DNA of 64,000 nucleotides from Macrostomum hystrix. Taxonomy: Eukaryota > Animalia > Platyhelminthes. The translations under genes and the position numbers were made by a program. The DNA lies in NCBI GenBank assembly GCA_950097015.1, contig CATNEN010000001.1, forward strand, positions 13,888,001 through 13,952,000, written 5' to 3'. Shown piece by piece: positions 7,300-33,004 of this stretch (positions are counted from its first letter, which is position 1; every line of letters starts with the position of its first letter). The notes below the pieces were generated by a model. The model was given only the letters and a program-made list of their open reading frames with translations. It had not been told where the DNA came from and did not search any database.

Positions 7300-7337
7300 G
7301 TGAGTACTGCTGCTGCTGCTTTCGTAACTTCCAGCAA

Positions 7338-10500: not shown

Positions 10501-11725
10501 TAGGCCCAGAGCTCAAGCATTCACTGAATGAGCCTCAGCGACTGGTGCAGTCCCTCCAGGTTCAGCCAGGGTCACAGATAGCAGAGCAGGATAAGCGTCT
10601 GAGGCCAGGAGTTGCTGGGCAGGAAGGACCATCGATGTCGAGGGCTCTGATTGGCAGGCGTCACATTCAATGGACTTGAACTTTCAAAGCTGCAGTGCAG
10701 CAGATTTAGACAGAAGCAACATGGAGGGCAAATCCTGGCTGACAAGCGATTAATCGGTAAATTTAATTCTCTTCATTAGCCATCCAAAGCAGTTTGACGA
10801 AAAATTGCCAATCAAGAATATAGGAACATGGATTTCATCGCGCAAAAACTTGGCTGTTTAAAACATTTTCATTGAACACAGACAAAGTACACTCCCTTCC
10901 AGCTACTCAGTCCATCGTTAGTATTGAGTAGCTCGTATCAGCAGGGTTTTAGCAGACAGATTCGAGGCAGTTGGAGGACAGATCTGCGCATGCTCGAGGA
11001 ACTCGGAGATCCGCAGATAGGTTGTGAAATTCATGAGATAAAGAATTGAGCAGCTCATATTCGTACTAGCGTAGATTATTTTAGAACTACTGAAAGTGAA
11101 AATTGGCTTGTCCGCCAGTTTTACAGACTTTCAGCAATAAATTAGGAAACTGGCAGCTCACCGAGCGGTGTGCCACCTGAGCTGATTGACAGAAACCATG
11201 CAAACCCATGGAATATTCGCTGAAATCCCAGATGGCGTGAGTGGTGATGGCGGCATCAACGGCTCGGACAGCTGGCCGAAGAACAAATGGACTGGCGCTG
11301 GAGGAGCTGCCGGTCAGCCGGGTCTGGTGGCGCCCTATCGCTACAACTCCATCTTCTCGTGCGGCGGTGCCGGCGCCGGCTGGCTCGGCTCGGCCCAGCC
11401 CAGCAACTTGTCCTTCCCTGATCCCGGAGGTCCCGGTCTGAGCCGCATCGACGGCTGGCTCGGCGGAGCTCGCAACTCCTCCTGCCCCACTGGCGACGGC
11501 GGCTTCGGTGGAGGCGGGGCTGGCGGCGGCTGCTGCGCTGGCGAACGCATCGGTGCTAGCGGCGGAGGCGGCGGATTCAGCGGTGGAGGTGCAGGCACAC
11601 GCGACGGACAGGCTGGAGGTGGGGGCGGCTCCTTCTGCAGCGGCTTCGGCTGCGCCACCGCCACCGGCGCCAACTCGGAGCCGCAGGGCCGCGTGCTGCT
11701 GAGCGCGTCTGCGGCCTGCGGCTGA
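7592..11725 (+). CDS. Secreted PAN/apple-like + ALK/LTK-like glycine-rich protein, paralog 2; exons 7592-7640, 7806-8147, 10036-10356, 11232-11725
   Basis: All three introns are GT-AG, phase 1, and the frame is continuous; same motifs and C-terminus (GRVLLSASAACG) as the other paralogs. Confidence 0.88.
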
Positions 11726-11760
11726 CGCTCAGAGCGAGGGGAGCCGCCAATCTGTGCCTC

Positions 11761-12428: not shown

Positions 12429-12921
12429 GCTGGTTTGACGCTGGCTTAGGACAGTGAAGGGTTGATTGGAAGTCACAGTTTGCAGCAATGGCATTTCACA
12501 CGAGTCGCGATTGCGACATCCTATGAAAACCATTGGTTCAAATGTCCATCAACCCCAGTGTGACTTCAGTGACAAGATTCGACTGCGATAGACGTGGAAG
12601 GCATCGATAGCCAGCTAATACCAGCTCCTTAGCTGTCATGCTAGTTTATTGCTGGGTTCGAGCATTGCTTGGGGTAGGCACAACAATTCTGTTCGTGACC
12701 TGTGGGACGAGTGTGACTGGGCTGGCATGAGGCCAATAGAATCACTCCCTTCTTTCACAGACTCCACTCCCCTTTCTCCCCTGTCATCTTCTCTGGTAGC
12801 TGCTTTCCCCTATCCTCTCCCCCGACATTTCCTCTCTCATTTGTCCCCTTCCTCCGCACAGGCGAGCCTCTCAGCCAACCCTTTCAGCATCGGCAGCTGC
12901 TTAGAGTTGATTTCTCATGAC

Positions 12922-13541
12922 GAGTTTTGGCGTGTTGATCAGACACACGAAACTCCCACTTCTAGACAATGGGGAACAATTGCCTAGGAATTTATAACAG
13001 TCACTTGAGACTTACTGCAATTGCTTCTTGTTCCTTGAGTAGTTTGTAGTCTTCTGGTCTTCGAAAGCCGGCGGTTCTTATTATCCTTGTTCTGGTCGAC
13101 CGTGAGGTTTCGAGTCTGTGTTTCTTGAGTCTTTGTAGTCTTGTCTTCTTTGTCTTCTTGGCAGCTGCTTGAGTTTGTCTGTTGGCCAATAAATGACGAG
13201 AGCGAATCAGATTACTTTTCGGTTTCCTCGAGCTCGGAATTCACAATAGAAACGTGCGCCCTAGTGAACAATTGAAATCTCTCGTGTATATCTCTAATAG
13301 GTCCTCCTGAAGAGCGTCTTCTTCGTTACCTCCGAAAGATAACGGATAACTCAAATCAAATCAATCAATAATCCTCTAGGAATGTATCCTAGGAAACAAG
13401 GAGGCTAGTAATCTATTAGTAATCTATTAGTAATCTATTTAACTCATTCCTAAAAATAGATTAAACGTTGTAGCTATGGTTTCCTTGTGACATTACTTTA
13501 AGCAGCGTGTTAAGCAAAAGCACATTTTACAACTCTCTACA
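12922..13541 (-). repeat. 3' LTR (620 bp, internally deleted)
   Basis: Matches 26904-27930 except that 443 bp are replaced by a 36-bp filler (13406-13441); one SNP noticed; begins TGTAGAG on the minus strand. Confidence 0.95.
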
Positions 13542-13556
13542 ATATCTCCTTTTTTT
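13542..13556 (-). promoter_or_regulatory. Polypurine tract
   Basis: aaaaaaaggagatat immediately precedes the 3' LTR TG on the minus strand. Confidence 0.8.
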
Positions 13557-13949
13557 ACGAAAAAATTCGTCCCGAATTTATTATTGACAAATAAAATTTT
13601 GGTATAAAGATGTAGGAGAATATACTGATATGCAACTTATTGTTGAAATAGTTGATAATTCGATTTAAAACTCACACCTAAAGCGTGAGAGTTAATAGCT
13701 CGTACCATCACCGAGCAGTAGCAATAATTGTCATTATGTATATCTATATATCCGCTACGAACGTATTAGTTAGTGGTAATTGTAGGCAAAATTGTAATTA
13801 AGAGGCGATAGTGAATGTAAGAAAAGTGTTGGATTTTCATTCACCCATAGATGATGTTGTTTAGGTGTGTTGGGTGTTGTCGCCTTATTTTTTCGACCAT
13901 CTTGCTTATCGGCCAAAAAAGTTTTTGCAGTTGTGTGTAGGTTATTAGT

Positions 13950-14462
13950 TTATTCGGTCCGTTCCATCAACATGAGGAAGGTGTCGAACGCCGTTGGTTC
14001 TCCTGGACTTTCAGCAATATTGTGGGCGAGCAGTAAGAGCCTTTGACGATGCGCTTTTAAACGCCATGGTATTGGCCATGATTTTATGTTACTCGTTAAG
14101 TCGTTTATGCTGGCCTCCTCGCAGTTATTTTCGTCTAGTAGGAGGTCTAGGTGTATGGGCGTCATGTAGGTGATCTTTGTAGTATTGTCCAACATCTTCT
14201 CTAAACAGTCTGGGCAGGAAGTGCTGTTTCTTCTTGCCATTGATTGTAAGCAGCTAAAACAACTCCAATATCGATTTTCGCACAATCGTATGTTGGGTTG
14301 TTCGTTGCATAGGACGCACCATACTCGGCTCCTGCGACACAGCGGACATGTAGGTAGTGGGCCCTGGCTTGTGCAGTTTAGACAGACTTTATGCCCCCAT
14401 TCGCATACTGGAACCAGATCTAGGCGTTCGTCGAGGCAGATGGGGCACAACTCTCGATTCAT
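13950..14462 (-). CDS. Accessory protein with two tandem RING-like fingers (copy B)
   Basis: CPICLD...CEWGHKVCLNC...CPLCR, then CVLC...CENRYWSCFSC...CPDC; acceptor tttcaacag directly precedes the ATG. Confidence 0.8.
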   Translation of the reverse strand: MNRELCPICLDERLDLVPVCEWGHKVCLNCTSQGPLPTCPLCRRSRVWCVLCNEQPNIRLCENRYWSCFSCLQSMARRNSTSCPDCLEKMLDNTTKITYMTPIHLDLLLDENNCEEASINDLTSNIKSWPIPWRLKAHRQRLLLLAHNIAESPGEPTAFDTFLMLMERTE

Positions 14463-14756
14463 CTGTTGAAATATTTTAATAATATTCTGATTCAGAGTTA
14501 TTATACTGGTATGTTTCTTGAGATGGTAGTATATATGATAGATCCTCGTTTCGCAAAATTAGTGTGGGAAGAATTGTACAGAAAATGGGACAGGGATGAA
14601 GATTCATGTCATAGACAAGATTAAACAGTTTTTGTGCAATATCATGTATGGACAATTGTCTAAGCTTAGGGCCGTATTGCAATGAGTATCGTACGCTCGT
14701 ACAATGTTTTTACGCGTTTTGTGAGCAATTCGTGGTATAGGCCATGGTTTTAGAAG

Positions 14757-15134
14757 TTAAATTATCTTATTAGAGGAAAAAAGAGTATAGGTTAATGGAT
14801 GAAGTTGGCAACCATAATTTGGTTTAATACGCGCAAGTTTGTTATAAATCATGAATAGTGGGGTATTATTGCAAACAGGACATTGGAAAATGGCTCGATA
14901 GGCAAACTTCTTCATGCATTGCGGACACATAAAATGTTGGTTTTGACAGTATTGTACTGTTCGCCATGAGTTACATATCATACATTGGCGGAGATTTCCA
15001 CGGCACAGAGGACAGTTTTTTAATGGTTTTTTGTAGTGTGCGAGGCTTAAGCAAGAACCGCAAACATGGTGTTTATTGACACATATACATGGTAGTTTAC
15101 ATGAGAATTCTGTAAGACAGACAGGACAGTCCAT
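14757..15134 (-). CDS. Accessory protein with two tandem RING-like fingers (copy A; probable premature stop)
   Basis: CPVC...CVNKHHVCGSC...CPLCR and CMIC...CQNQHFMCPQC...CPVC; the frame continues past the stop as LLKPWPIPR, matching SWPIPW of copy B. Confidence 0.8.
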   Translation of the reverse strand: MDCPVCLTEFSCKLPCICVNKHHVCGSCLSLAHYKKPLKNCPLCRGNLRQCMICNSWRTVQYCQNQHFMCPQCMKKFAYRAIFQCPVCNNTPLFMIYNKLARIKPNYGCQLHPLTYTLFSSNKII

Positions 15135-15264
15135 GGTAGTGTTCGCGAAAATTTTGTGGGCGTTTGCAGAGAGCAGAGGTTTAGTCGCCTTTTACGACAA
15201 GCTTGAGAAGCTGTAGTGCTATTCTTAATCCCGGTCACTACACGGGGAACAATAAACGAGTAAT

Positions 15265-18200
15265 TTAACGAGAACGTAGGTTATACGTCTGCTTATTTGG
15301 TGGTGTGTTTGTGGTTTGTGTCTCGGCATGTGCTGTTGCAATGTGCGTGTTTGTTGTTTTTGTGTGTTCTGGATTCTGTAACGTTGGAAGGAATGTAGTG
15401 TCCTTAGTGATGCGTTTTAAACGTTAAATGTGAACATAGAACTGAGGTTGATGTGGATCCTGGATATTTGCAAGGCGTGCTGTTGTTGCGGATATCAGTG
15501 CTGTTACACGGAAAGGTCCTTTGTATTTGAAGGCATGTTTGTGCGTATGCTGTGCCGGGTAGTGTAGGTAGACGATATCTCCCACTTGTAAAGTAAAGAT
15601 GCATGATTACTTGTTGTAGGTACGGTAGATTGATTGTCGAGATTATGTTTTGCAATTTGCCATGCTAGGTGTAATTGAGAAGTGAACTTTTGTAGTGTCG
15701 TTGGCGTGTCAACATATTGAGATGGCAGTAATTTCTGAACTAATAGGTTCGGTGGTTGAAAGTCTCTAGAGAACATCAGAATGAATGGTGTGTTCTCTGT
15801 TGAGCGATGAACTGCGCTGTTGTAGGCCATTGTCACTGATTGTATGTAAATAATCCAATCTTCAGGTTGCTTATAGACAAAGTGTGTCAACATTTCATGT
15901 AGGTTTCTGTGAAATCTTTCGACGAGGTTTGCTTTTGGATTATATGTCGAGGTGAATATCTGTTGAATATTCAGTAGTTTGGCGGCCTGTTGAAATAATT
16001 GTAATGTGAATTGTGTGCCATTGTCAGATGTTAGCGTCTTCGGGTTCCGAATTTGCAGATAATTTCATTATAGAAGGCCATTGCTACTGTTGTCGCTGTG
16101 ATGTCAGGTATCGGAATGGCAACGGCGAATTTCGAGAAAACATCCAAGGCTGTAAAAATGTAGTTGTAGTCGATAGAGTGTTGTCGAGCCGGTGGTAGTG
16201 GTCCGGTAATGTCAATTGACACTGTGTCCCATGTAGTTGTCTTCGGCACTGATTGGAGTTCAGGTTTTTGTCGTCTTTCGATTTTTGTTGAAGCACATGA
16301 GTGACATTGTATGCAGTACTTGCGAATGTCTAAATTCATTGTTGGCCAAAAATAGAATTAGACTACTCTATGGATTGTTTTCTTGGCGGATAAGTGTCCG
16401 GCTAATGGACTATCATGGAGTTCGTGTAGGATCGCTGAACGGAATGTGTATGGTAGGTACAGTCGCGGAATATTGTTGTACACCCAGTAGAGTGCGAGTT
16501 CTCTGAAAACTAGACTAGTTTTGTGCTTTCGTAAGAATTGTTTTTCGATTTTTGTAAGTTATTTTTCCGTTTCTTCATTATCTTCTTGTATGGCTTTGTA
16601 AAAGGAATCGTCTTGTTGTGCTTTCAACAAGTCTTTTATGGTTGGAATTGGATGAACTGCATTGATCTCGTATGTTCTGGACAGTGCATCAGCGGCTTTA
16701 CTCATTGGCCCTGGTTTGTAAACCAGGTGAAAGTTGTAGTCCTGTATTTGAGGACCATTCGGATAAGTCTATTGTTCGTCTGTCCTTTTGTTTTAACAAC
16801 GTGAGTCAGCGGTGCATGATCTGTGCGAATGATACGCTCGTAGTTGGCAGTGGTGATCCATAGATGTAGTAATGGAATTGTCGAAGAGCAAACAGAACAG
16901 CTAGTAGTTCTCGTTCAGTGGCTGACCATTTTGTTTCGTTTGTTCTTAGAGCTCTGCTGATGTAAGCAATCGGTTTTTCTTTCTTTGGTTCCATTTCCTG
17001 AAGTAGTACTGCTCCTAATCCACTTCCTGATGCGTCTGTTTCTATGATAAAAGGTTTGTGGAAGTTCGGGTGTTTGAGAAGAGCATCACTAGTTAGTTGT
17101 TGTTTGATTCTATCGAAACTTTCCTGTTGTTCCGCTTTGCAGTTGTCTTCTTTCCACTTTGGAATTTTTAGTAGTTCGTACAATGGTTTAGCCGTTTGTG
17201 CAAAGTTAGGTAGGAATTTTCGGAAATATTGTGCTAGTCCAAGGAATGACTGCAGTTTGGTAATTGACGTAGGTTTCGGGAACTTCTTGACCTTGTCGAC
17301 GTTATTTGGGTCTGGTGATATGCCTCGTGATGAAACGTGATGTCCAAGATATCGGACCGAATCTCTGCAGAATTTACATTTTGTTGGTTGCAGTTTTAGA
17401 CCTTGTTGTCGGAGTAAGAAGAGAGCTTGTTCCATGACTTTTACTAGTTGTTCAAAGTTATTTCCAGAGGCAAGGATATCATCAACATAGTGAAGCAGAT
17501 TTGTACATCCGGCTAGCATATAGGCTGTAAGACGGCTCATTGTTGCTGGTGAGTTGGAGATTCCCATTGGACTTCTCTGATACGCGAAAACTTCTCCTTT
17601 GTAAGTTTTGAAGGCAGTGTATTGTTTTGAGTCTTCTTCAAGTTCGATTTGCCAGAATCCATGTCGTAGGTCAAACACAGTGAAGAGTGTTGCCGTATTG
17701 AGTCGTGCTAGCAGTTCTGAGATTTTTGGTAGACTTTGTTGATCGGTGGGAATGTACTTATTTAGGACTCGGAAATCACAGACGAGTCGTCTTTCGTTTG
17801 TTTCTTTCTTTTCGACAAGAAGGCAAGGTGAAGAATATGCTGAGACGGTTCGTTTTATGATCCCTGCTTTAAGCATTTTTTCTATGATTTCATCGAAATG
17901 TTGTTGTAGGTGTTTAGCAACTGGATATGGTTTACATTGGATTGGTTCTTGATGAGGTAGTAGTTCAATCTTTTGCTTGATATCACGAGCACATCCGATG
18001 TCGTAATCGTGATGACAGAAGACGTCGTTATACTTCCACAATAGATCTTTAACTTGTGCTTTTTGTCCTTCGGTGATTGGACTTTGAGAAAGATCAATTT
18101 GTTGTAGGAATTTTTGTTTAGACATTTTTGTTGTTGTGTCTGGTTGGATGAGCATTACTGAAGCTTGTGTGTTGAGATGTCCCATGCATGTTCCTGCATA

Positions 18201-18947
18201 GATTTTTACTGGATGTTGATTTGGATTTATAATTTGTACTGGGATGTTTCTTTCCTTTGTGATAAGGACTAGAGCCGTTGGTATTAAAACTTCTTTTGTT
18301 GTGAGGATCTTCTTTCTTGGTTCAAATATCATAGCTTCTTCGACATCGTCATGATTGGCGAGGTATGCTTTAACCCAACATGTACTTTCCGGTTGTATGA
18401 AAACATCTTGTTTAATATGTACTTTTGGTTGAAGGTGAACTTGGCTGACTAAGGGATGTTCCACATTGTCCAGTTTGAATGTTTGTTTGTTGAAATCAAA
18501 TGTTAATGGTGGATTCATCTGCCGAAATGTGTCGATTCCAATAATAACATCTTGACTTGGAAGATGGTCAATAACAAATTCTTGTACTAGAAGTTGCTTG
18601 TTTGCAAGTTTAAGTGATATATTCACTTGTCCTAGGATATTAAGTGCATGTCCTCCGGCTCCGGCGACAGCGATTGAAGAAGGTCGCATATGAAGTTGCA
18701 ATTTGTCGTAGAGTCTTTTTGTGATGACTGTGATTGAACTTCCTGAGTCGAGAAGTGCTTTACTGGGCATGTTGTTTATAAATACTTGAGCCATCGCTCT
18801 ACCCATATTGGCTTGCAAGGTGCAAATGTAATTTGCTGGCCATTTTGGATCCGTTGGTAGACGAGGAGATGTCGGCGGTGGTCTCGCTGTCCTGATTTTA
18901 ATTTTTGGGTAAATATTTAATCGTTCTGGTTCTGGTGCTGTTGGCAA
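15265..18947 (-). pseudogene. pol: pol: aspartic protease, RT, RNase H, integrase (several frameshifts/stops after ~16830)
   Basis: LLDSGS, YVDD, ETDASG..GAVL, TDHAPL, ADALSR, HHCC zinc finger (HDSP..GH...CIQCHSC), DITGP / DVFSKF / SDNG / VERF, GPF motif, ends YNLRSR*. Confidence 0.95.
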
Positions 18948-20884
18948 TAATTGTTTTCCTTGATCTTGTAGTAGAGTTTCTTCATTTTTTCGTTGGGTGT
19001 AGTAGTTTCTTGTTGTTTGTCAATTTGGAAAATCCGTTGTTTTGCTGGATAGGCTCGTGCTACACATCGTACTGCTGTGATAAAGATCATTAGTGCAAGG
19101 TGAATCCATACAATGCATGCACTGGAGAAGATGAATCCCTGATAGTAACTTCCTTTTCCTTGGAGTAAATCGAGAAAGCTATTCGACCAAAAGGATCCTA
19201 TTGCGTTATGTATGATGAATCCTGTCGAAAAGGATTGTTCTTTGTCCTGTTGGTTGTTTTGGGTAAAGAGCTTTTTCATCATCTGTCGTTGGGCGATAAA
19301 AACTTGAAGAAAATCATTAATTGTCCATCCTAGTGTGATTTCGTCAAGTTTGATGTCACTAAATGGTTTATAGGTGGTCTTATTTATCTTGAGCTGTAGG
19401 TCCGCTAGTTCGTATGTTTCGTCGATAATAGCTTGCATACCAGTGATGTTTGTAATGTGCCCAGTTGTTGAGACCTTGTGTAGTTTATTATTAATGTTGA
19501 AATAGTTGGCTGCGTCAGCGCAGGGTCTCGGGATTACAGTTCCAACAATTATATTGTGCACAGTATCTAGAAATCCTTGAATTCGTTTCCCATTGTAGTA
19601 AGCTTCGATTCGGGGTTTATCGTAGCACGTAGTTGATGTGTTTGATGGCAAGATATTAAAATGATGTAGTGGCACACATTTGTAGATCAACAGATGGCCA
19701 TAGATGGGGATAGCTAGAACATCTCGAATGCCTGTGATTTTTCTGAATGTAGACGTTGGATTGACATAATAATTTTGTCGTGCATAGTTAAGTGCAGTTT
19801 CGTGCATTCTACAAGTCAGTTGGATCAGGGATTTGTGCAAGTAGTTGAGTTCTTTATGTAGGTTATGTTCCATTGCTGCGAGTTTTGCCGCTAGTAGTCG
19901 TGCAGAAACCATTGATGGTCTTTGTATTTCTCTCCTTTTCCGAGCTGTGTTGGTTCTTGTTGAATAAGTACCATTTACCAGTCTCATAAAGGTATCCTCA
20001 TCCATATCACGTAATTCGAGCGGTATCTCTTGTTCAGACACTAGAAGTTTTTTGGAGTTATCCTTACCGTTAATTCGGAGATACTTGGGTTTTTTGGAAA
20101 CGTTAGAGCAAAATCCGACGTACTCGCAAGGAAAGTATTTGACAGTAGATTTCCTTTTATTGTATGGTACTTCTGGAATTTACAATCAATATTTGGTTCA
20201 ACTTTCCATGCAACGAAGTACTGTCGTTGGTATTCTGTAATCTCATAGTGTGGGTTTTGTCGATGTTCAATTTGCCATTTGTAATTTTGATGATATGTTG
20301 GAGCCAGCGGTACTTGCCATACGAGCGTACTGCTTCGTTCCAGAGTTTTGCTGTTTCGCAGAACCCTGTGTTGTACTTACAGTCTTCAAGTGATAATTGT
20401 AGAGATTCCATGTTTTCAAACGGATTGTGGTAAAACAAGACTTTCCGGATCAAGTAACTGTTTGTCGTGGTGTAACGTGGCTATATGTATTCGTTCCAAT
20501 GGACATATCTACCGTTCGCACTGTTCTTGGTTCTGAAGAGTTGAGAGTTATCAATCTTTTCATCGGCATGAAGTTCTCCATCTTTAGAAAATAATGTTTG
20601 GTTCCACTGAAGGCATTCTTCTTGTGTGACAGGCAGTGCTGTTTGCCAGAATCGGATGCGATTCCATTGGATGTACCAAACCTTTTCTAGTTCATGTTTA
20701 TCTCGGAAACAGACAATACCATATTGTCTATGTTTCTTTGTGTTTGCTTTGTAGACATCGATCGTTAATGGAATAGGTTTTGTTTGATTAGTTTTAAAGT
20801 AACTGCACTTGATTTCCGTTGGTATGTTGTAAATGACTGGTTGGATGTTGGCATCAGTAGGGCATATCATGGGCACTGAAGATA
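18917..20884 (-). pseudogene. env: env-like glycoprotein ectodomain + TM (class III fusogen-like by motif recall); one stop (20481-20483) and about two frameshifts (~20225, ~20080)
   Basis: Cys-rich (PMIC, EEC, CKYNTGFC, W..E...CKF, YKC, CY..P, GFLD...II...PC), N-x-S/T sites, furin RKRR (19942-19931), C-terminal hydrophobic segment FIFSSACIVWIHLALMIFITAV. Confidence 0.8.
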
Positions 20885-22188
20885 CGAGGAGCGTACTGAA
20901 AGTTTTGAGATACGTCTGACTTATAAGTTGCAGCTGCGCGCCTTTTAATGTACATACTGTACCACCTTAAAAATGAATGAGTATAAATTTTCAGCCTTTG
21001 CGCTCTTGTCAATTTTTCACAATCACTCTTCAAAGTCAATACCCCCTACCAAACTGTACTCGCTCCAATGGAGTTGACAAACCGCGACTTTCGTGCCATG
21101 ATTGTTTATGACCAGCGTAAAGGTCTCACGCAAGAGCAATGCGTTGAAAGTTTACGTGCTGCCTTTGGAGACCAAGCCCCTTCACGTGCCACCGTTTTTC
21201 GGTGGTACAGTGAATGCAAGTGGGGCCGGAGCAGCCTTGATGACGAGCCTCGGTCGGGACGTCCAGTTTCCGCTGTCACGGACGAAAACATCGCTGCCGT
21301 CCGGAGAATGATCGACGAAGACCGGCGAGTGACCTGTGCCGAGATCAGGGAGGCTCTTGGCATTGGATCGGCAGCGGTTACGACCATCCTACACGACAAG
21401 CTGGGAGCCTCCAAGCGATGTGCCCGATGGGTGCCCCACAACCTGACGGAGGACCAGAAAGCGGAGAGGGTGCGTTGGTGCGAATTCATGCTTGAAACGA
21501 CTCTGGCACCTCGAAGCGATGCTGGGAGATTGTCACAGGTGATGAGACCTGGGTCTACCAGTACGACCCGGAAACCAAGCAGCAGTCGGCAGTTTGGCTC
21601 CTTCCGGATGATGCCACTCCAACGAAGGTCAAGCGGGCCCGCAGCGTCGGGAAGCAGATGGTGGCGACTTTCTTCAGCCAGGCTGGCCACCTGGCGACTG
21701 TAGCGCTCCAAGACAGGCGTACAGTCAATGCCGACTGGTACATCAACCAGTGCCTGCCGCTGGTGTTTGATGCGTGGCGCAGACGCCGGCCGCGCACCGG
21801 ACTTCGTGGCCTGCTGCTGCACCACGACAATGCCAGTGCGCACACGGCTGCTGCAACATTGGCATTTCTGACCGAGAATGGAGTCCAGCTGGTGACGCAT
21901 CCTGCATATTCGCCGGACCTGGCACCCTGCGACTTCTTTCTCTTCCCTTTGGTGAAGAACCAACTGCGCGGGACTCGGTTTGAGAGCCCTGAAGCAGCAA
22001 GAATCGAGTTCGAGCGGGTGGTTTCAGCAGTGCCTGAAGAACAGTGGGCTGGAGCCTGGACGCAGTGGTTTCACCGAATGAGGAAATGTGCACAAGCTGG
22101 TGGCAACTACTTTGAAAAATTGTGACAGAGAATTTACCTCAGACACTTTTGGTTTTGGTGCATCTCAAAACTTTCAGTACACCCCTCG
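20885..22188 (+). mobile_element. mariner transposon (1304 bp) inserted in env
   Basis: 27-bp TIRs cgagg(a/g)g(c/t)gtactgaaagttttgagat with 2 mismatches; TA duplication at 20883-20884 and 22189-22190. Confidence 0.97.
21068..22125 (+). pseudogene. mariner DD34D transposase, frameshift near 21495
   Basis: HTH N-terminus, WVPHNL, GDETW, HHDNA, YSPDLAPCDF motifs split over two frames. Confidence 0.95.
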
Positions 22189-22190
22189 TA

Positions 22191-22932
22191 GTACAACTGT
22201 CGGGAGAAGTAACATCACGATGGCTGAAAACAACCATCTTATCAGTATGTGCCTTTTCTTTTTCTTCACTTTGGTTGGTGGTTTATTGGTGTTTATTGAA
22301 TATCGTTGGTCTTCTGTCTCTCCAATTGGTGGAGTAAGGCGCATAGAAAAGTGCCATGGGTTGTTGCATCCTGATGGTCTGGTTTGTTGGTTATACCAGG
22401 TTGGTTTTTTCATATCGAATGTTAATGGTGTATTGAGAGTTTGCGGTACGGTACTTGTAGTATCCGTTCTCATGTCGATCCACGTTGTTGGTTCATCATA
22501 GACATGATCGTCATCCTTTTCCATCGACGTACCGTAGTCACTTTTAGTCTGAGAAGATCTATCGTGCTTCGAGTAGTACGATTCGGTATTCACTGCTTTA
22601 TTGTGTCCATTCTGTCCTTCCGATAAATTGACAGGGGTTATGTTTTCGTATTCGAGATCAGGTTTGTACTTGGGTGTCGAAGGCGGTGTCTCTGTCAAGT
22701 CGATGTCATCGACTAAAATTTGTAGCATGCTGATGCTTTCTTCAGACGTGTTGTGTGAATTTGTCGCACTGTGGTCCTCATTACTCCTTTCTGTGGATGT
22801 GGACAATTCATCTATGCCTTCTTTGTTTTGCAGAACTTTTGAAAGATCGCTCATCGTTGGAATTTTGAATAATCCTTTGATTTGTTGTTGTAATTGCTTT
22901 CGTTCAATGTGTTGACAGGTGTTGAAGATTAT
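22191..22932 (-). CDS. Gag-Env linker ending in basic residues + internal signal sequence (segment between the two nested insertions)
   Basis: Open frame ending KVKKKKRHILIRWLFSAIVMLLLPTVVL; in frame with gag upstream and env downstream after removal of the insertions. Confidence 0.8.
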
Positions 22933-25124
22933 TAATTATTAAAATTATTAAATAAGATTATTATTATTATTATCAAAAAGATTATTGTTTACCGATTGTA
23001 CCATATGACTAAGCTTATTGTTACTGTGGTTTGGCATACTCGACTTGAAGCATTATTTAACGCTGAAGCATTGTTTAACGCCGATTGTTTAATCCCGATT
23101 GTTTAACGATGCCTCATCGAATCAGAAACGTTCTAGACTTCACTGAGTGTGTATTGTCTATGGCTACAACTGTGCCATATGGAGTGAAAAGCAGTAGAGG
23201 AATACATAGGTTGGACTCTGCTAAGCTGTGCCATAGACTATTGGAGCGAAAAGGAGTAGAGAAATGCAAAGGGTTTGCGTTTAAAAATACAAGTTATAAG
23301 TTTCACTGTCTGCACTGATTCCAAAAATGCATCTAATACATTGGAAAAACTTGCCGACCGACTCTTTTAACGGAGTATCTGCTAGCGAAATGGATTTTCT
23401 TTCAATGCTGAGTGCAACGGACCACTCGGAGGACGCTGATCTACTGGAATTTGTCAACTTCTTAGAAGATCCCGCCCGTGAAGATCAGTCGGTGCTGGAC
23501 ATATCATTACCGGATCTACCTGGTGACGCACCACTGTCGGTTGACGATCTCGATCGCATTGAAATCGATTCGCTACCCAAGAATACGCGAGAACAGATGT
23601 TCCAACATGGAAAAGCATTTGTGGAGTTTCTACGAAGACAAACTGAAGTGTCCCCTGAGACGATTTCGCAGACCATGCTGAATGAGTTTCTATGTTTCTA
23701 CTACTTTTCGTTAAAGAAAGCTGACGGAGGAAGGTACGCACCTGCGTCCTTGGTTTGCATCCGTGCCGGCATTCAGCGCTACTTTTGCATCGTTCTTAAG
23801 CGTTCTGTGGATATCATTTCTGGAGGAGAGTTTGCTGCCGCTAACAGAATGCTACGCGTCAAAGTACGCGAATACAATGGATCTGGTGCTTTCAGAAGAC
23901 AATATCCGCCAATTGAGGAAGGAGACCTAGAGCGATTGCGGAAATACTTTGATAGAAGCACAGCAGAACGTGTTCAGGATGAAGTGCTCTTCACATTACT
24001 CTATACATTAGGTGAGCGCGGCCAAGAACATCTTAAATATCTCAAGAAGAAGGGCACCTTGGTAGAAGGAATAGATGCTGATAGCCAACCATATCTGAGC
24101 CTGCCAGATCTGCCAACGAAGAATCAATCGACTGATCCAACGCGTGCTAAGAACAACTCAGCAAAGCAAGCTCGCCTCTATGGACAGCAGCGAGATCTTG
24201 TCGTCGACTACTTAAAGCTGCTACCGGAGAACACAAAAGATTCATCCTTCTTTCCACGCCCACTGGCAAACGATGGAAGCGGTAACCTTCGTTTTTCAAG
24301 TAACCAGGTTAGAGGCATTAATTGGCTAGCTAACTTCAAGCGTCACCTGAGCGAGATCTGCAAGTTGTCAAAAATGTACACTAATCATTGCATCCGGGTC
24401 ACGCGTATTTCGGATTTGCATGAATGTGGACACAAGCTGGACGAAATCATGACTATTACTGGGCAGAGGGCCAAGTCGACTGTCCGGCGTTACTTGTCGA
24501 GAAGACGCGATCGGTCCATTAAACAAGTTTCGATTGCTCTAAGTAAAGCGCTGGAGCGACCACTAGCAACTACAAGTAACTTGAATACCGATGTCAAGCC
24601 GTTATGCGATGGGGCTGCCGAAGGTGCTGACGATGTTGTAGCGCCAATGATGGTAATCGAGTCTAGCGTCGGAGCCTCTGCCACTAGTGCTGAGGCGGCG
24701 GAGCCGGGGATTGTGCATGTGACAGCCAACGACAGCGAGAAAAAAACAACAGTCGTCCTAAATTTCAACGGAAAATTCGAAAACTGCAGCTTCCAAATCA
24801 AAGGGACGTAAGTCGCCAAGTTTCGTCATTTCAATATAGGGAATAAACTATATCGAGGTCCCATAACAATGTGAACGGAATAGTAATATTTATTGCTTGT
24901 ATTGTAAAACACGTTATTAGTTTTGTTAATGCGAAATGTTGTTTTGATTTGTTTTAATTCCAAAATATAACTCAATATAGCTAACCAATAGTCTATGGTT
25001 AAATCTGCGAAACATCGTTAAACAATCAACTTCTCTGTGAAACGTTGTTAGTATGCTAAACCATAGCAACAATACTTTCTCTTGGCGAGGGAGTCGATAA
25101 CTCTTCAAACAATGAACCCATTAT
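22933..25124 (+). mobile_element. Crypton-type tyrosine-recombinase DNA transposon (2192 bp including one attat copy)
   Basis: Flanked by direct attat (22928-22932, 25120-25124); removal restores the host frame; subterminal inverted blocks; YR ORF. Confidence 0.85.
23327..24811 (+). CDS. Crypton tyrosine recombinase (DUF3504-like)
   Basis: FYYFSLKKADG..YAPASL..IRAGIQRY, GERGQEH, YTNHCIR, ITGQR...RRY; intronless 494 aa. Confidence 0.9.
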   Translation: MHLIHWKNLPTDSFNGVSASEMDFLSMLSATDHSEDADLLEFVNFLEDPAREDQSVLDISLPDLPGDAPLSVDDLDRIEIDSLPKNTREQMFQHGKAFVEFLRRQTEVSPETISQTMLNEFLCFYYFSLKKADGGRYAPASLVCIRAGIQRYFCIVLKRSVDIISGGEFAAANRMLRVKVREYNGSGAFRRQYPPIEEGDLERLRKYFDRSTAERVQDEVLFTLLYTLGERGQEHLKYLKKKGTLVEGIDADSQPYLSLPDLPTKNQSTDPTRAKNNSAKQARLYGQQRDLVVDYLKLLPENTKDSSFFPRPLANDGSGNLRFSSNQVRGINWLANFKRHLSEICKLSKMYTNHCIRVTRISDLHECGHKLDEIMTITGQRAKSTVRRYLSRRRDRSIKQVSIALSKALERPLATTSNLNTDVKPLCDGAAEGADDVVAPMMVIESSVGASATSAEAAEPGIVHVTANDSEKKTTVVLNFNGKFENCSFQIKGT

Positions 25125-26381
25125 GCAGCTACTGTCGTTGCTTATGTTGTCGTTCTGTATTTTCTGTGTTGACTCATTGATAAGGTAAACATTTTTATCT
25201 TCTGTATCCTCTGTTTCCTTTTGTGGCATGGGCGGCTCTTTCGAATGGTCGCTTTCGATTATAGTAACATAGGCTGCACCATCGTTGTCCAGATGAAGGT
25301 CATTGATTTCTTGCTCCTTCTTTTGTTTCTCAAGTTCATCAAGAACATTGACGGAAAAGTCTGGCATAAGATCTTCAATCTTGAACTTTGGTTCAATAGT
25401 TTGAGTGTATTCAGGCTCAATAGCTTGAGTGTATTGTCGACGGACTTGCGTTGGTTGTCTTGGAGGTGGAGGATTTCTTTGTTGACGATAAGGTACGATG
25501 GCATTAGATGGTCTGCTATCTTGTTGTCGACTATTTGTCCAATTACGGTTTGAAAGCTGTCTTGGAGGACGAGTCCAATTGGTCTGTCGATTGTCATTGT
25601 ATGAACGTGGGTTGCCACGTGATCTGCAGTCTCTAGCATAATGACCGATCCTTCCACAGGTATAGCAAGTTGATGTGTGTAAGTATCTTTGTTGTGGTTG
25701 TGGATAGGAATACCTCTGCTGTTGTGGTACAATAGCAGAAGTTTGGTGTTGCTGCATGAGTTTGCTTAATTGTTCTGCTAGTTGTGTCGTGTCACTATTA
25801 TGAGTAGTCATAAGATGCATTCCACAACGGAGCAATTGTTCCTCTGTGTTAATAGTTTCTCTCAGCAGTCTATCTCGCAAAGTAGGCTGTGCGTTGTTAA
25901 TCACATGAAGTATTAAGCTTTGTTCCCGGTCTTCAAGACGTTGTCTTTCTCGTGCAGCTGATTCGGCAGGTCCTATAGGTTGAGCTCCTTGATCCAATGG
26001 TGGAGGCTGATGTAATGCTTTGACGATCTTACGGATGTCATCAACAAAGGTGAGAAAACTCTCAGTGGAACTCATTTTTCGATTATGAAGTTTATGAAGG
26101 AGTACCGATCTGTTTGTTCCACATCGTGCGAATTGTGCTCTCAGTTGGGTAACTAGAGCTTGATAATCTTGTTGTACTGCAGCTGTCAATTTTCCATAGA
26201 TTTCTCGGGCTGTTCCTTGTAACAGTGGAGGTAGGAGGAGTGCTTTCTCTGCATTCTGTAATCCATATTCGCGTGAGACCAAATCAAAGTGATCAATGAA
26301 TTTGTTGAAATCTTTATCCATTGTATACATTCCGACCGTTTCCCTAATGTCACGATGGACCTGATAGTTTCTTCGTGCCAT
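25125..26381 (-). CDS. gag: gag (capsid + CCHC zinc knuckle), interrupted at its 3' end by the Crypton
   Basis: Retrotransposon gag-like helical region (LLPPLLQGTAREIY), CYTCGRIGHYARDC; first ATG at 26381. Confidence 0.92.
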
Positions 26382-26880
26382 ATTCGCAACTGGGTACGGA
26401 AATAATTCAAGTTCTGGATCGATGTTCAAGGGTTCGTCCAGATTGACTTCTCTGACAAGATTTAGTGTGAATAAAAAGTGTGTGTGTGCGTGTGCGTGTG
26501 TATCAACAAAATGAAAATGGTTTACACGGGGGAATTATTTACTCAGGACAAGGGAGAAAATTTTATACAAGGCAGGGAACGTATGCCGCTTTCAACGCTG
26601 AAAAGGGGTTATTGAAATGAGAGCCGGTGAGTTCAGTCGCGCGATTCCCAGGTGTGCAAACAATAGAGCGAAGTGACGCATGTGGCTTATGTGCAAACAA
26701 TATCCGGTAGGGACAGCAAAATTTTTCAGAGAGATGACGCAACAAAACTTTTATGAAACGGTGGATCAAAGGCAATAATGATGAGTTGCAAAAATTTTTT
26801 CTTTTTACTTTTTTGTTAAAACGATTCGAAAGTTGTAACGCAAAAAAATTTAGTATCTCGGCCTGGGCTTGATTGCAAGG

Positions 26881-26897
26881 CCTGGGCGAGATCACCA
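26881..26897 (-). promoter_or_regulatory. Primer-binding site, probably tRNA-Val
   Basis: TGGTGATCTCGCCCAGG 6 nt inside the 5' LTR match; resembles the complement of eukaryotic tRNA-Val 3' ends (from memory). Confidence 0.75.
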
Positions 26898-26903
26898 GTT
26901 AAA

Positions 26904-27930
26904 GAGTTTTGGCGTGTTGATCAGACACACGAAACTCCCACTTCTAGACAATGGGGAACAATTGCCTAGGAATTTATAACAGTCACTTGAGACTTACTGC
27001 AATTGCTTCTTGTTCCTTGAGTAGTTTGTAGTCTTCTGGTCTTCGAAAGCCGGCGGTTCTTATTATCCTTGTTCTGGTCGACCGTGAGGTTTCGAGTCTG
27101 TGTTTCTTGAGTCTTTGTAGTCTTGTCTTCTTTGTCTTCTTGGCAGCTGCTTGAGTTTGTCTGTTGGCCAATAAATGACGAGAGCGAATCAGATTACTTT
27201 TCGGTTTCCTCGAGCTCGGAATTCACAATAGAAACGTGCGCCCTAGTGAACAATTGAAATCTCTCGTGTATATCTCTAATAGGTCCTCCTGAAGAGCGTC
27301 TTCTTCGTTACCTCCGAAAGATAACGGATAACTCAAATCAAATCAATCAATAATCCTCTAGGAATGTATCCTAGGAAACAAGGAGGCCTTTCTCAAATGT
27401 ATCGACGATATGTGGCTCTCGTAAACTTAGTTCAATTCAACAACTATTGCTAGCAATAAATTACTCTGTCTAGTAAAGCGCTCACCACTTGTCTTTGCCT
27501 CAGAGATGAGTCCTCTTCTTCGTAAGATGTTTTGAAGTCCGGTGGACCGCTCCGAGTCTGAATTTTCAGCTCAGATTTTCGCTTGTATTTATAGTAAAAT
27601 TTTGGAAAAAACCGGTTCTACTACCGGGTGTTTACTTAGGTCACACATATTTGTTTAGTGAGTCATGATTGTGAGTTTTACCATATTTGGAATATTGTGT
27701 AAATACAGATACAGAAACCGATGAGTCATAATTGTTTGTTTTACCATATTTGGAATTCAAGCAAATACAGCTGTCAAGAACCGGTTCTCCGGTTTCATGT
27801 CACATGACTTTTTTCTAAAAATAGCGAATGACTCATTCCTAAAAATAGATTAAACGTTGTAGCTATGGTTTCCTTGTGACATTACTTTAAGTAGCGTGTT
27901 AAGCAAAAGCACATTTTACAACTCTCTACA
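26904..27930 (-). repeat. 5' LTR (1027 bp)
   Basis: Direct repeat of 12922-13541; starts TGT on the minus strand. Confidence 0.95.
27586..27835 (-). promoter_or_regulatory. Putative U3 promoter: TATA + two CArG boxes + three AP-1 motifs
   Basis: TATAAATA (27593-27586); ccatatttgg at 27681 and 27744; tga(g/c)tca at 27659, 27722, 27829. Confidence 0.55.
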
Positions 27931-29304
27931 CTCTGTCATAGAGCTTTGAGTCAAGAAACTGCTCAGACAACTCCCCGCCAAACCCCCACTGACCAGAATG
28001 TTCCCCATTTTCTTTCTAAATGCTTTTTTTTCTTAGAAAGATGAATAAATTCTCAATATTTTAGTTGCAGCTTGTGCGTCCACCTGTTTCAGCTACTGAG
28101 CAGTGCTTAAATAAAGTTTAAGGAACTTTAAGGTCCTGCAGATACGTCTAGATAAAGGTAGGTGACCACCGAAGACGGAGATGATGCAGGCACATTCGGG
28201 TGACATGCTGATCAATTTTGAAGGCCTGACAAGGCCGCACTGAGGCGCAGTGCTAATTCATGTAGAGGGGGATATGAAATGGACTAGCGCTTATGGGAAA
28301 AGTCTGACTTTCGGCCAGAACCATTGAATTTCTCGACGGTCTGAAGAGCTGGCAGCTTGATTATTGTTTCAGAAGATGCGCGACAAACAGTTGGCCCGCG
28401 TTCTAGAGTTTCGTGTGCATGCGTTGCTCCGTTCGGGTGCAGCACAAAAAACTGTCGGGTTCTCCTGCAGAAAATTTTCAAATTTTCTTATTTTGAAAAG
28501 TTTATTACTTCACTCTATAGGTATTCACGTTTTCTACAATTAAGCTTCATTTCGCTGACACTGTACTAAGCTTGTAGGCACGATAAGCAGCTCTCACAGC
28601 GCGAGAAGTAGACCGGTGAGATCAGGTGCTTCGATGTATCTGTCTATCTTTACAACATTGTCTAGCTAGAGCATGGCTCCCAAACAGTAATTTTCTTCGA
28701 TATTCTACAAACTCAAAAAGTTAATTGACAAGCTTCCGTCAGACCTTGCAGCAACAGAGCCGCGGCATCCACCCCGCTGTGAAACGGAGCTAAATTGAGA
28801 AGTTCTAGCATCTGCTCACAAAGGAAGCCGGGCCACCTGGGTGAAGTGTCAATTGACATGACATGCTGACATTGTGCTGACAATGAGAACACGTCAATAA
28901 TCAGTTGGCAGTCAAATCAATTGAATAGTCCTGTTAGCAGTGCACTGGGCTCATTGGGGCAGCTAGCGGGCAAAGAATGCACTTCAAGCAACACAAGACT
29001 GTCTGGCCTGGCTTGCTTTGTGTATTGGGTACTCATGATGATTAGCAAGAAGCATTGCTGATTTTTGACCCATGAGACTTCTGATCGGCTGCATAAGGCT
29101 GCGTGGGTCACCTGAGAAGATTGTGCTGCATTTCTTCATGCAGAGATCGGTCAGGTCAGGAGCAACTTTTGAGATGTCTCAGACATCACCAACGCACAGC
29201 CAGGTGAGGCGTGTGGTGCTTTTGGACCTGAAATACTGGCTAGAAGTAGGTGGAAATCAACAAAACAATAGGTTTTAGGGCATTTTTGCTGCCATGTTTC
29301 TTAA

Positions 29305-30357: not shown

Positions 30358-30844
30358 GGCTCCGGCTAGCGAACAGTCGAGCCAAGACTCGAGGAGCAGA
30401 TCCGAAAGAAGCGAAGGCAACTACGACTTCTAGGCGTGATTGCCTTCTGTTTGAGCAGAGCGGGCCCAGAGGCCCTCGCAAGGCAGAACCGTCAAAGGAG
30501 AATTCCCACAGGCAGCAGCAAACAGCACTGAAAGTAGCTGCTGTTTGACTTCCATTTTTAACTATTCGCTACTCCCAGATTCGCAAGCAATCACGCCACT
30601 GCAATGCATTGTTTCAGTGGCAGAAAATGTAGGACTGTTCCAGATTTGCTCAGAAGGCTTGCAAATAAAGTTCCATTCACTTTCAGCGGTTCCAATTTCG
30701 CAGATGAAATTCAACTCCATTTGATGCAGGGACCCCGACAACTCAAGGCTATTTAATGCGTATAGCAGAGACCGCTTACCTGTCTTCATGCAGTCGCACT
30801 CTTACTCCACCAGAGTCCGATTTGAGCTGACTGCGAAATTCACA

Positions 30845-32951
30845 ATGGGATTGACGGTGTTGGCTGCTCTGCTGCTTGTTTGCACCACCGGTGAGTACTG
30901 CTGCTGCTGCTTTCGTCTGGGGGAAAATCTTTAGCCAGTACTGCCACTGCACAATAAGGCTACTGCAGTGTGGATCCCTGACCAGCTCAGAACAGGTAGT
31001 GAAGTAGCTGCTTCTGAAGCTCGTAGGTGCTTCACCAACCGTATTCTCTGGATGGCTTCCATCGATTAACAAGAAAAATACAAATTGCAGGAGGGCTGCG
31101 GGCAATGGCACATCATTTGGTGACAGTAGACCCAGAGCCAGCGAGGAGGCAATTCTGCCCGTTTCGCTGGCTCTTGAGTACACAAGCACACAGTTACCGT
31201 ACGCAGGCACACACTCACACAGGATGTGTACATCTGCCAAATTTCTTTCATCGTCAGGCAGTGTACACACTCACTGTGTCTTGGAGCATGGAATGTGGCG
31301 AATGGTGCCCAGGACCTTGGTGCGAAGGGCATGCGTGTTAGACAGCATGCCTCTCAGCCCCCGGCTTCCATCTCAAGAGAGTTATTTTTAAGGGCTCGGA
31401 ATTTGTTACTGCTGACAAATCTGCTATCCACGAGTTCCTATAAATTTTGGCAATGTCTCTCGAAGAAGCGCAGCTTATCGAGTTTCATACGTGTTCTTTC
31501 ACCCCCACAATGTGATGCAGTGACGCAAGCTGCTACCGGAAGGCGATTCGAACTTGAGACCAGTGGCTTCATCGCTCTGAATGACTCGGTGAGCAGCAGT
31601 CTGGTCAACCAGTCCGGGTTCCGCTCGGCTGCCGAGTGCCTGTACTGGTGCGATGACAGAGGCTGCGCTGCCGCAGTGCTGAATGAGACCAGCCGCGTCT
31701 GCCAGATGCTCGTCATCAACGACGAGTCGTCGGGTCAGCCTGGGCCGAACGGCAGTCACGTGACGAGGCAACTGGGCTCGCCAACAGACGGAGCCGTGAG
31801 GCTGTGGAAGTCGGAGGATTTTGAATTTCAGATTCGGTCAAAAGCTTTTCAACTGACGTTTCGTAGTGAGCGAGCTGAAAACCATATAATTATTATCGAA
31901 TAAGTTTGACTGAATAAGGCATTTGAGATTGCAGAAGTAGCCTGAGTAAGTACATGAAAACGGCAAAATGCCGAAACCCGAATTACCAAACAGACAGCAG
32001 CTCCGGCCGGAACGGATCGGTTCAGTTCTTCTCCGTGCCGTTCGCTGCCTGCTTCCGCATCGAAGCCTTCGGAGCTGCTGGGGGCAACACGCCACGGTGG
32101 AGCCGTGGCGGCAGGGGCGCCTCAGCCACTGGGAGCTTCTGGCTCGCAGCTGGCGCCCGACTGGACATTGTGGTTGGACAAGCTGGCGGCGACTCTGAAT
32201 GCCCTTATGGCGCTGGTGGCGGCGGTGGCAGCTTCGTGTACGTCAGAAATGGCACTGGCAGTCCTCGGCTGTTTTTGGCCGCCGGAGGTGGCGGCGGTAC
32301 TTCTGGTCGGGTCGGTGAGGGACAGCTGTACTTACTGAGGCCAATGCTTAGTTATGGACTGAGAGGTCTGAATGCGGAGGAGGAAAGGAAAAGATGGGGC
32401 ACACAAATTAACAACAGCATTTCTGCCATCGGAGTTCCCGCACTGAAATCGCAGGCATGAACGGCGTCGGCGTCAGCAACGGCACAGACAGCTCACCTGT
32501 GCAGAGCTGCTCCGGCACTGGAGGAGCTGCCGGTCAGCCGGGTCAGGTGTCAGAGAAGCGGTACGCGCCCAACAGCCTCGCGTCCTCTGGTGGACCCGGA
32601 GCCGGCTGGCTGGGCTCGGCCAAGCCCAGCAATGAGTCCTTCGCTGATCCCGGAGGTCCCGGTCTGAGCCGCATCGATGGCTGGCTCGGCGGAGCTCGCA
32701 ACTCCTCCTGCCCCACTGGCGACGGCGGCTTCGGCGGAGGGGGCGCTGGCGGCGGCTGCTGCTCTGGAAGTCGCAACGGCGCTGGCGGCGGAGGCGGCGG
32801 ATTCAGCGGGGGAGGCGCCGGATCATATGGACTGCAGGCCGGAGGCGGCGGTGGCTCCATCTGCAGCGGCTTCGGCTGCGACGCCACCACCGGCGCCAAC
32901 TCGGAGCTTCAGGGCCGCGTGCTGCTGAGCATTTCTGCGGCCTGCGGCTGA
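30845..32951 (+). CDS. Secreted PAN/apple-like + ALK/LTK-like glycine-rich protein, paralog 3; exons 30845-30890, 31521-31865, 31994-32314, 32455-32951
   Basis: Three phase-1 GT-AG introns, continuous frame, same domain motifs. Confidence 0.88.
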
Positions 32952-33004
32952 CGCTCAGTCTGAAGGGAACCGCATCAGAGCCAGGGAGATAATTGTGATG
33001 GGCT

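What the first reader, a model, noticed from the sequence alone, without database searches (positions are those of the whole stretch)
15265..26381. Hidden gag-env-pol polyprotein: an LTR element with its envelope between gag and pol
Seen: deleting the Crypton (22933-25124, attat direct repeat) joins gag in frame to the linker (...NDSSC-I-IFNTCQHIERKQL...). Deleting the mariner plus one TA (20885-22190) joins the linker in frame to the glycoprotein (...KKKKRHILIRWLFSAIVMLLLPTVVL-SSVPMICPT...). After the env TM, pol lies in the -1 frame, which is open from ~19020; one extra A in the A6 run near 18990 would read PNEKNEETLLQDQGKQLLPTAPE straight into the protease. Established: env-bearing retroviruses and errantiviruses normally have the order gag-pol-env. 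Inference: the intact element (~11.9 kb) encodes one ~2,500-aa polyprotein with a flavivirus-like topology: cytosolic Gag, internal signal, lumenal fusogen, TM, then cytosolic PR-RT-RH-IN. That would anchor Gag to the membrane and package Pol through the Env tail at 1:1:1 stoichiometry. I cannot confirm that this layout is unreported.
Basis: partly seen in the sequence, partly recalled or inferred. Interest (0 to 1): 0.95.

Follow-up and report, generated by a model that had tools for sequence, protein, structure and literature searches.

The report
Broken flatworm-type gag-env-pol enveloped retrotransposon
This is a broken copy of a virus-like jumping gene whose herpes-gB-like envelope gene sits between its capsid and enzyme genes, likely read as one long membrane-spanning protein in undamaged copies; that layout is already published for flatworms and roundworms.

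Summary
Real, but known. The minus strand holds one LTR element: gag, linker with a hydrophobic signal, class III (gB-like) envelope with one anchor, PR-RT-RH-IN, two double-RING genes. A mariner and a Crypton-like element interrupt it; contigs of 4 of 4 runs (2 studies) run across both sites. The copy is more damaged than reported: 7 frame changes, 4 internal stops; the Crypton end is about 50 nt off. Database proteins labelled Macrostomum lignano carry signal-env-anchor-pol (1,914 aa, RT 81% identical) and gag-env-pol (2,852 aa) as single chains, so one polyprotein is likely. Env in frame between gag and pol was published in 2019 (PMC6431247); GAG-ENV-POL elements of flatworms, nematodes and bryozoans in PMC13524379, one with the same 12-nt primer site. 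Strict 1:1:1 packaging is doubtful: 540 Pol exceed a Ty3-sized capsid. Not found in print: budding-type motifs on the envelope tail and the double-RING pair. This scan noted the layout, the motifs and the RING pair before, on other genomes.

The parts
26904..27930 (-). 5' LTR (starts TG; inner end a few nt below 26904); holds a 443-nt stretch (27388-27830) with no counterpart in the 3' LTR
   Evidence: 484/484 and 99/100 nt identical to the 3' LTR
26886..26897 (-). Primer-binding site; its reverse complement equals the 12-nt site listed for Platyhelminthes_Rhabditophora_Mlig_errantivirus_2
   Evidence: against supplement row
25070..26381 (-). gag: capsid-like region, CCHC knuckle (25626-25667), low-complexity tail; no stop
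   Evidence: zf-CCHC E 4e-7; 31% to P0011 Gag part, E 7e-25
22928..25069 (+). Crypton-like tyrosine-recombinase element inserted in the gag tail (ORF 23300-24811); family name rests on weak hits
   Evidence: joint in 4 of 4 runs; loose ends near 25074
22191..22927 (-). Acidic low-complexity linker ending in a basic run and a hydrophobic stretch (22192-22248), predicted internal signal or signal-anchor
   Evidence: no sequence match to P0009
20885..22188 (+). Mariner DNA transposon with TA at both ends, transposase itself split in two frames
   Evidence: (HTH_48, Transposase_1)
19136..20882 (-). Class III (gB / nyamivirus-G-like) envelope ectodomain, with furin-type RKRR at 19931-19942; broken by one stop and two frame changes
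   Evidence: (PF24664 E 5.5e-6, below cut-off)
19079..19135 (-). Envelope membrane anchor (hydropathy 2.37), predicted stop-transfer
18900..18944 (-). PTAP and IYPKI motifs between anchor and protease, late-domain-like; in the pol frame just behind the env/pol frame change near 18985
15265..18899 (-). pol: protease, RT, RNase H, integrase in Ty3/gypsy order; four frame changes and three internal stops
14757..15134 (-). Accessory ORF 1, 125 aa, two RING-like Cys clusters
   Evidence: (weak); a contig links it to the integrase end (table 8)
13950..14462 (-). Accessory ORF 2, 170 aa, two RING-like Cys clusters; paralogue of ORF 1 (36% over 86 aa, E 4e-15)
   Evidence: (Sina_RING E 4e-4, below cut-off)
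13545..13556 (-). Polypurine tract
12922..13541 (-). 3' LTR; ends a few nt short of the 5' LTR's inner end; no target-site duplication seen

Best explanation
The region is a decayed copy of a Ty3/gypsy LTR retrotransposon with a gB-like envelope gene between gag and pol, likely translated in undamaged copies as one polyprotein of about 2,550 residues that is predicted to cross the ER membrane twice. Shown: gene order, LTRs, primer site, two hydrophobic stretches, gB-like fold, the breaks, and single-chain relatives. Inferred steps: Gag and linker are made in the cytosol; the basic-flanked hydrophobic stretch inserts and sends the envelope into the lumen, where signal peptidase and furin would cut; the second stretch stops transfer and leaves a short tail with PTAP and YPxI motifs and then PR-RT-RH-IN in the cytosol. 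Because the anchor sits at Gag's C-terminal end, far behind the RNA-binding knuckle, the element's protease would most likely cut Gag and Pol free, as flavivirus capsid is cut from its anchor (recalled); capsids would take only part of the Pol, and budding would be recruited through ESCRT by the envelope tail. The two 3' double-RING genes are likely accessory ubiquitin ligases. The host is likely a Macrostomum-like flatworm.
For: Contigs of 4 of 4 runs (2 studies) join across both insertions, and one 5,036-nt contig runs from pol through env and linker into gag. At the 7 frame-change sites the contigs differ in length from the window in 4 of 4 runs at four sites (16043, 16746, 18983, 20320) and in 3 of 4 at three (two with no cover in the fourth run, one covered without the difference listed). 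P0009 (1,914 aa) is signal-env-anchor-pol in one chain and matches every env piece (55-75%) and RT (81%); one tblastn match spans the env stop. P0001 and P0010 also join env and pol. P0011, P0031, P0032 (2,852-2,859 aa) hold Gag, env and pol. P0024 (knuckle-env-protease), P0027 (capsid-knuckle-env) and hookworm P0037 (knuckle-env-pol) show the same order. Models of the window's env piece (pLDDT 68) and of the P0009 ectodomain (pLDDT 73) match herpesvirus gB (best E 7e-7 and 6.5e-19) and nyamivirus-type G (E 5e-22). P[TS]AP plus [LI]YPx[LI] lie between anchor and protease in the window, P0009/P0001 and P0011/P0032; shuffles of those stretches give each motif in 0.3-1.8%.
Against: This copy is not open: 2 insertions, 7 frame changes, 4 stops. 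Whether other copies share the env stop was not seen (one search lists 40 of 447 letter differences). No close relative joins gag to env: P0009 starts 35 residues before its signal, and the search for longer gag relatives found none among 6,309 candidates; the full-length chains are only about 30% identical (39% in RT). P0009 and P0011 are gene models and could hide splicing. Logan contigs merge copies. Signal and anchor rest on hydropathy only. Foldseek TM-scores are below 0.5 and pTM is 0.39-0.40. Of the 10 database proteins scanned, P0027 and P0020 have no late-domain-like motif before the protease, P0024 and P0037 only a YP motif, P0017 and P0026 no P[TS]AP; the motif test followed a lead, so the shuffle rates are optimistic. 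RING hits are below Pfam cut-offs, and Atlas hits are below 0.9. No processing step was observed.
Confidence: 0.78

Rival explanations
1. One reading: Gag stays tethered to the membrane by the internal signal and Pol enters through the Env tail, all at 1:1:1.
For: One frame gives equal synthesis; two hydrophobic stretches fit the topology; a linker of about 410 low-complexity residues could reach from a capsid to the membrane.
Against: The anchor is C-terminal, behind the knuckle that faces the capsid interior; 540 Pol chains (8.8e4 nm3) exceed the Ty3 capsid interior (about 5e4 nm3). Capsid size of this element is unknown.
Confidence: 0.15
2. One long frame exists, but spliced or internally started RNAs make Gag and Env-Pol separately and set their ratio.
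For: P0009 begins just before its signal and P0001/P0010 inside env; no close gag-env fusion found.
Against: These starts may reflect broken copies or gene-model choices; P0011, P0031, P0032 are full length. It adds to the best explanation more than it replaces it.
Confidence: 0.25
3. The offset between env and pol is a programmed -1 frameshift, so Gag-Env is the main product and Pol a minor extension.
For: Pol is open in the -1 frame from 19019, overlapping the env end; an A-run lies there.
Against: No slippery heptamer in register with the env frame (the one at 18990 is out of register); contigs of 4 of 4 runs differ in length from the window there; P0001, P0009, P0010, P0011 read env into pol without a shift.
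Confidence: 0.04
4. The many breaks are assembly errors and the copy is young and nearly whole apart from the two insertions.
For: LTRs agree at 583 of 584 alignable nt; some frame changes lie at A-runs.
Against: The interior differs from the contigs by 2.1-3.0% with transitions 1.7-2.0 times transversions, the pattern of real mutation; four stops are point changes; long open frames elsewhere in the window are undamaged.
Confidence: 0.1
5. The envelope is a one-off insertion into an ordinary gag-pol element.
For: None beyond the unusual order.
Against: Same position in contigs of 4 of 4 runs and in relatives at 81% and 39% RT identity.
Confidence: 0.01

Closest known systems
GAG-ENV-POL errantiviruses with HSV/gB-type ENV of Platyhelminthes, Nematoda and Bryozoa (Chary and Hayashi, eLife 2026, PMC13524379), closest entry Platyhelminthes_Rhabditophora_Mlig_errantivirus_2 (16 copies)
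   Same: Gene order, gB-type envelope, Ty3/gypsy pol, ectodomain between two hydrophobic stretches, identical 12-nt primer site. By my arithmetic on the table's coordinates its coding room (at most about 2,720 codons) fits a chain of about 2,550.
   Different: By the same arithmetic it has about 680 nt between pol and the 3' LTR, against 1,723 nt with two RING genes here. LTR 863 nt there, 620 and about 1,030 here. The passages I searched do not say that the three parts are one frame ('polyprotein', 'single ORF', 'in-frame', 'fused': 0 hits). Its sequence was not in the supplement searched, so identity is untested.
Burro / GYPSM1 giant gypsy-like elements of planarians (Arkhipova and Yushenova 2019 by recall of authors; PMC6431247 section 7)
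   Same: Env in frame between gag and pol in one polyprotein, with hits to mononegavirus fusion glycoproteins; the text calls it the first such case.
   Different: Burro ORF1 is 4,873-5,140 aa in elements over 30 kb with BIR, BCL2, MATH, ubiquitin-like and dUTPase parts; this element is about 11.6 kb without them.
Non-canonical nematode endogenous retroviruses (Sacco et al. 2022, doi 10.1099/jgv.0.001739; not held)
   Same: ENV and POL flipped (as cited in PMC13524379); a continuous gag-env-pro-pol frame is my recall of its abstract. Hookworm P0037 shows that order.
   Different: Nematode hosts; RT only 35% identical to P0037.
Database polyproteins labelled Macrostomum lignano: P0009 (PAA64473.1), P0001/P0010 (ALD16272.1, ALD16273.1), P0011 (PAA86625.1)
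   Same: Collinear env and pol, RT 81% (P0009, P0001); same two-pass layout and tail motifs.
   Different: Distinct families (env 55-75% to P0009, 25-35% to P0011); their database names do not mention an envelope; their 3' regions could not be seen.
Classical Drosophila errantiviruses (gypsy, ZAM)
   Same: Ty3/gypsy pol plus an envelope.
   Different: gag-pol-env order and F-type envelope (PMC13524379).

Membership tests
Ty3/gypsy (Metaviridae) | pol order PR-RT-RH-IN | tested here: met
Ty3/gypsy (Metaviridae) | RT closest to Ty3-type enzymes | tested here: met
   Ty3 chains 4ol8/7q5b E 1e-55 to 1e-56, ahead of foamy, caulimovirus-type and MLV chains; no tree built
Ty3/gypsy (Metaviridae) | LTR pair, primer site, polypurine tract | tested here: met
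Ty3/gypsy (Metaviridae) | Target-site duplication | tested here: inconclusive
   none seen; the 3' LTR lacks its last few nt
GAG-ENV-POL gB-type errantiviruses (PMC13524379) | Order gag, env, pol | tested here: met
GAG-ENV-POL gB-type errantiviruses (PMC13524379) | HSV/gB-type ectodomain between signal (or TM) and TM | tested here: met
   window piece; relative P0009
GAG-ENV-POL gB-type errantiviruses (PMC13524379) | Intact reading frames (the paper's entry rule for its catalogue) | tested here: not met
   this copy is broken; a property of the copy, not of the family
GAG-ENV-POL gB-type errantiviruses (PMC13524379) | Place in the paper's RT tree and cysteine-bridge class | not testable with these tools
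   reference sequences and figures not on hand
Mlig_errantivirus_2 family | 12-nt primer site | tested here: met
   12 of 12
Mlig_errantivirus_2 family | Length between pol and 3' LTR | tested here: not met
   1,723 nt against about 680 nt inferred; not filed under this family
Burro / GYPSM1 | Env in frame between gag and pol | tested here: inconclusive
   phase and relatives agree; this copy is not open
Burro / GYPSM1 | Giant ORF with BIR, BCL2, MATH, dUTPase parts | tested here: not met
Classical errantiviruses (gypsy, ZAM) | gag-pol-env order with F-type envelope | tested here: not met

The most novel reading that the evidence does not exclude
These elements bud by an inverted logic: the captured class III envelope was dropped into Gag between the nucleocapsid and its p6-like late-domain segment, so the ESCRT-recruiting motifs now ride on the envelope's cytosolic tail, the capsid is cut free from a C-terminal anchor like a flavivirus capsid, and a pair of element-encoded double-RING ligases supplies the ubiquitin signal or disarms host defence. 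That would be an undescribed assembly route for a reverse-transcribing virus.
Probability: 0.3. Interest if true: 0.62.

Novelty: new member of a known kind. Interest (0 to 1): 0.3.

Why it matters
The headline claim, an unreported gene order, falls: it is in print since 2019 and catalogued across three phyla. What stays open and testable is how a single chain that spans the membrane twice is cut and assembled. If the envelope tail carries the budding signals and the capsid is released from a C-terminal anchor, these elements reach infectivity without a matrix protein, which bears on how retroviruses arose from retrotransposons. The double-RING pair would add a new accessory cargo.

Tried and rejected
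No own genome is held, so copies could not be counted. No RNA holder listed; no evidence on expression. Longer relatives of gag: none among 6,309 candidates. Relatives of RING ORF 2: none among 14 candidates; Atlas gave only RING-type leads under 0.9. Related loci: alignment too divergent for viral contigs; 194 pattern matches in metagenomes, none confirmed. Rfam: 0 matches in 12500-28500. Linker against P0009: no match. VIA-align comparison not run. A second laying of contigs over 20400-28150 gave no result, so the env stop and the usual LTR form in other copies stay unseen. Earlier notes by sequence or place: nothing. Sacco 2022 and Grohme 2018 not held. Paper searches added nothing on this layout (listings only). 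No RT tree was built: too few reference sequences. No complex was predicted. Rejected: programmed frameshift before pol, one-off envelope insertion, Burro membership.
Full report
Anatomy. The finding lies inside one LTR element on the minus strand, 27930 to 12922. The LTRs match at 484 of 484 and 99 of 100 nt; the 5' LTR has a 443-nt stretch where the 3' LTR has about 36 nt. A primer site follows the 5' LTR and a polypurine tract precedes the 3' LTR; no target-site duplication was seen. Inside, in order: gag with a CCHC knuckle, a linker ending in a basic run and a hydrophobic stretch, a glycoprotein with a furin-type site and one anchor, and PR-RT-RH-IN. The RT's best solved relatives are Ty3 chains. 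Two paralogous double-RING-like ORFs (125 and 170 aa, 36% identical over 86 aa) lie between pol and the 3' LTR; a contig links ORF 1 to the integrase end.

Observation check. The mariner is as described. The tyrosine-recombinase element is there, named Crypton-like on weak hits only. I laid 4 of the 8 listed runs (contigs, 2 studies, 0.35-0.44 of the words). The frames on both sides of each insertion are in phase. The contigs differ in length from the window at all 7 sites: in 4 of 4 runs at four sites, in 3 of 4 at three. The stop at 15426 coincides with a difference in 4 of 4 runs; the other three stops could not be judged, as only 40 of 447 letter differences were listed. Contigs merge copies and cannot prove that any one copy is whole.

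One chain? The env piece found 1 longer relative among 2,148 candidates and 20 representatives at E up to 0.001. P0009 (1,914 aa, labelled Macrostomum lignano) is signal, ectodomain, anchor and pol in one chain and matches all env pieces at 55-75% and RT at 81%. P0011, P0031 and P0032 (2,852-2,859 aa, same label) add a Gag that matches the window's gag (31%, E 7e-25). P0024, P0027 and hookworm P0037 show knuckle or capsid, envelope and protease or pol in the same order. Against: no close relative joins gag to env, and several are gene models. I put the single chain at about 0.85 for the family.

Envelope. Pfam gives only a sub-threshold Monjiviricetes fusion hit. A model of the window's open env piece (pLDDT 68, pTM 0.40) has herpesvirus gB in all rows shown, best E 7e-7. 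A model of the P0009 ectodomain (pLDDT 73, pTM 0.39) gives gB at E 6.5e-19 and nyamivirus, rhabdo-like and chuvirus-type G at E down to 3.5e-22. TM-scores stay under 0.5, so the class is secure and the domain arrangement is not.

Mechanism. Shown: two hydrophobic stretches, the first behind net charge +6. I depart on assembly. The anchor is about 410 low-complexity residues C-terminal of the knuckle, the reverse of retroviral Gag (recalled). Equal packaging fails a volume check if the capsid is Ty3-sized: 540 Pol chains of 134 kDa need about 8.8e4 nm3 against about 5e4 nm3 (PMC6525542, passages). Release of Gag and Pol by the element's protease is therefore the likelier route. Following a lead from earlier notes, I found PTAP and IYPKI between anchor and protease; P0009 has its only PTAP, PPxY and YPxI within 19 residues there, and P0011 has PSAP and LYPTL. 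Shuffle rates are 0.3-1.8% for the two main motifs; 5 of the 10 database proteins scanned lack P[TS]AP before the protease in that position or altogether, and P0020 was without any motif. ESCRT use and ligase activity of the RING proteins are untested.

Known work. PMC6431247 (section 7 read whole) describes env in frame between gag and pol in planarian Burro elements as the first such case. PMC13524379 (abstract, section 5 part 1, section 14, passages, rows of supplement files 2, 3, 6, 7; bioRxiv version passages) reports GAG-ENV-POL elements with gB-type envelopes in nematodes, bryozoans and flatworms. Its Macrostomum entry has the same 12-nt primer site but, by my arithmetic, a much shorter 3' region, so I do not file this copy under it. 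Its figures and deposited sequences, and the preprint's supplements, were not visible and may bear on family placement and on whether single frames are noted. Sacco et al. 2022 was seen only as a citation. Not found in print: RING accessory genes (0 papers with all four terms; 'accessory' 0 hits) and late-domain motifs in such elements (6 listings, none on them by title). The library lacks most subscription papers and Repbase. Earlier notes of this scan record the layout, the motifs and a double-RING pair on other genomes; they are leads, not support.

Unexplained. Near-identical LTRs flank an interior 2.1-3.0% away from other copies (chance of at most one LTR difference at 2.4% is 1e-5). A defective copy moved in trans, LTR conversion and assembly collapse were not separated.

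Verdict. A decayed new member of a known kind. Interest 0.3.

Noticed in passing
window 12922-13541 and 26904-27930: LTRs agree at 583 of 584 alignable nt while the interior is 2-3% diverged and broken; the 5' LTR has an extra 443 nt with an internal 50-nt repeat.
   Followed up: partly
window 13950-15134: Two paralogous double-RING-like ORFs in sense orientation between pol and the 3' LTR, with no database relatives found.
   Followed up: partly
window 22928-25069: The Crypton-like element is only 0.6% from contigs of other runs, has loose ends at other sites and several internally deleted forms, so it looks like a young multicopy family.
   Followed up: partly
window 20885-22188: The mariner has a split transposase and mismatched ends; other runs show many internally deleted copies at other sites.
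   Followed up: no
window 3334-4967, 7826-11747, 31556-32973: Three diverged copies (78-94%) of a glycine-rich gene segment, one with a weak ALK/LTK glycine-rich domain hit; the LTR element lies between the second and third.
   Followed up: no
window 36479-38815: Long minus-strand ORF with an amiloride-sensitive sodium channel (ASC) match, E 2e-13, holding a 63-nt tandem repeat in frame.
   Followed up: no
window 41812-42243: Fragment of a second, unrelated gypsy-type RT.
   Followed up: no
window 6846-7325 and 30433-30916: Shared segment in which 161 nt are inverted and the next 330 nt direct.
   Followed up: no
window 43691-47500 and 56070-60170: A 21-nt tandem array of about 175 units and a long CAG-rich array, both giving stop-free frames over 1,200 codons.
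   Followed up: no
P0011 residues about 1010-1170: A long Thr/Ser/Pro-rich, mucin-like insert inside the envelope ectodomain, absent from the window's family.
   Followed up: no
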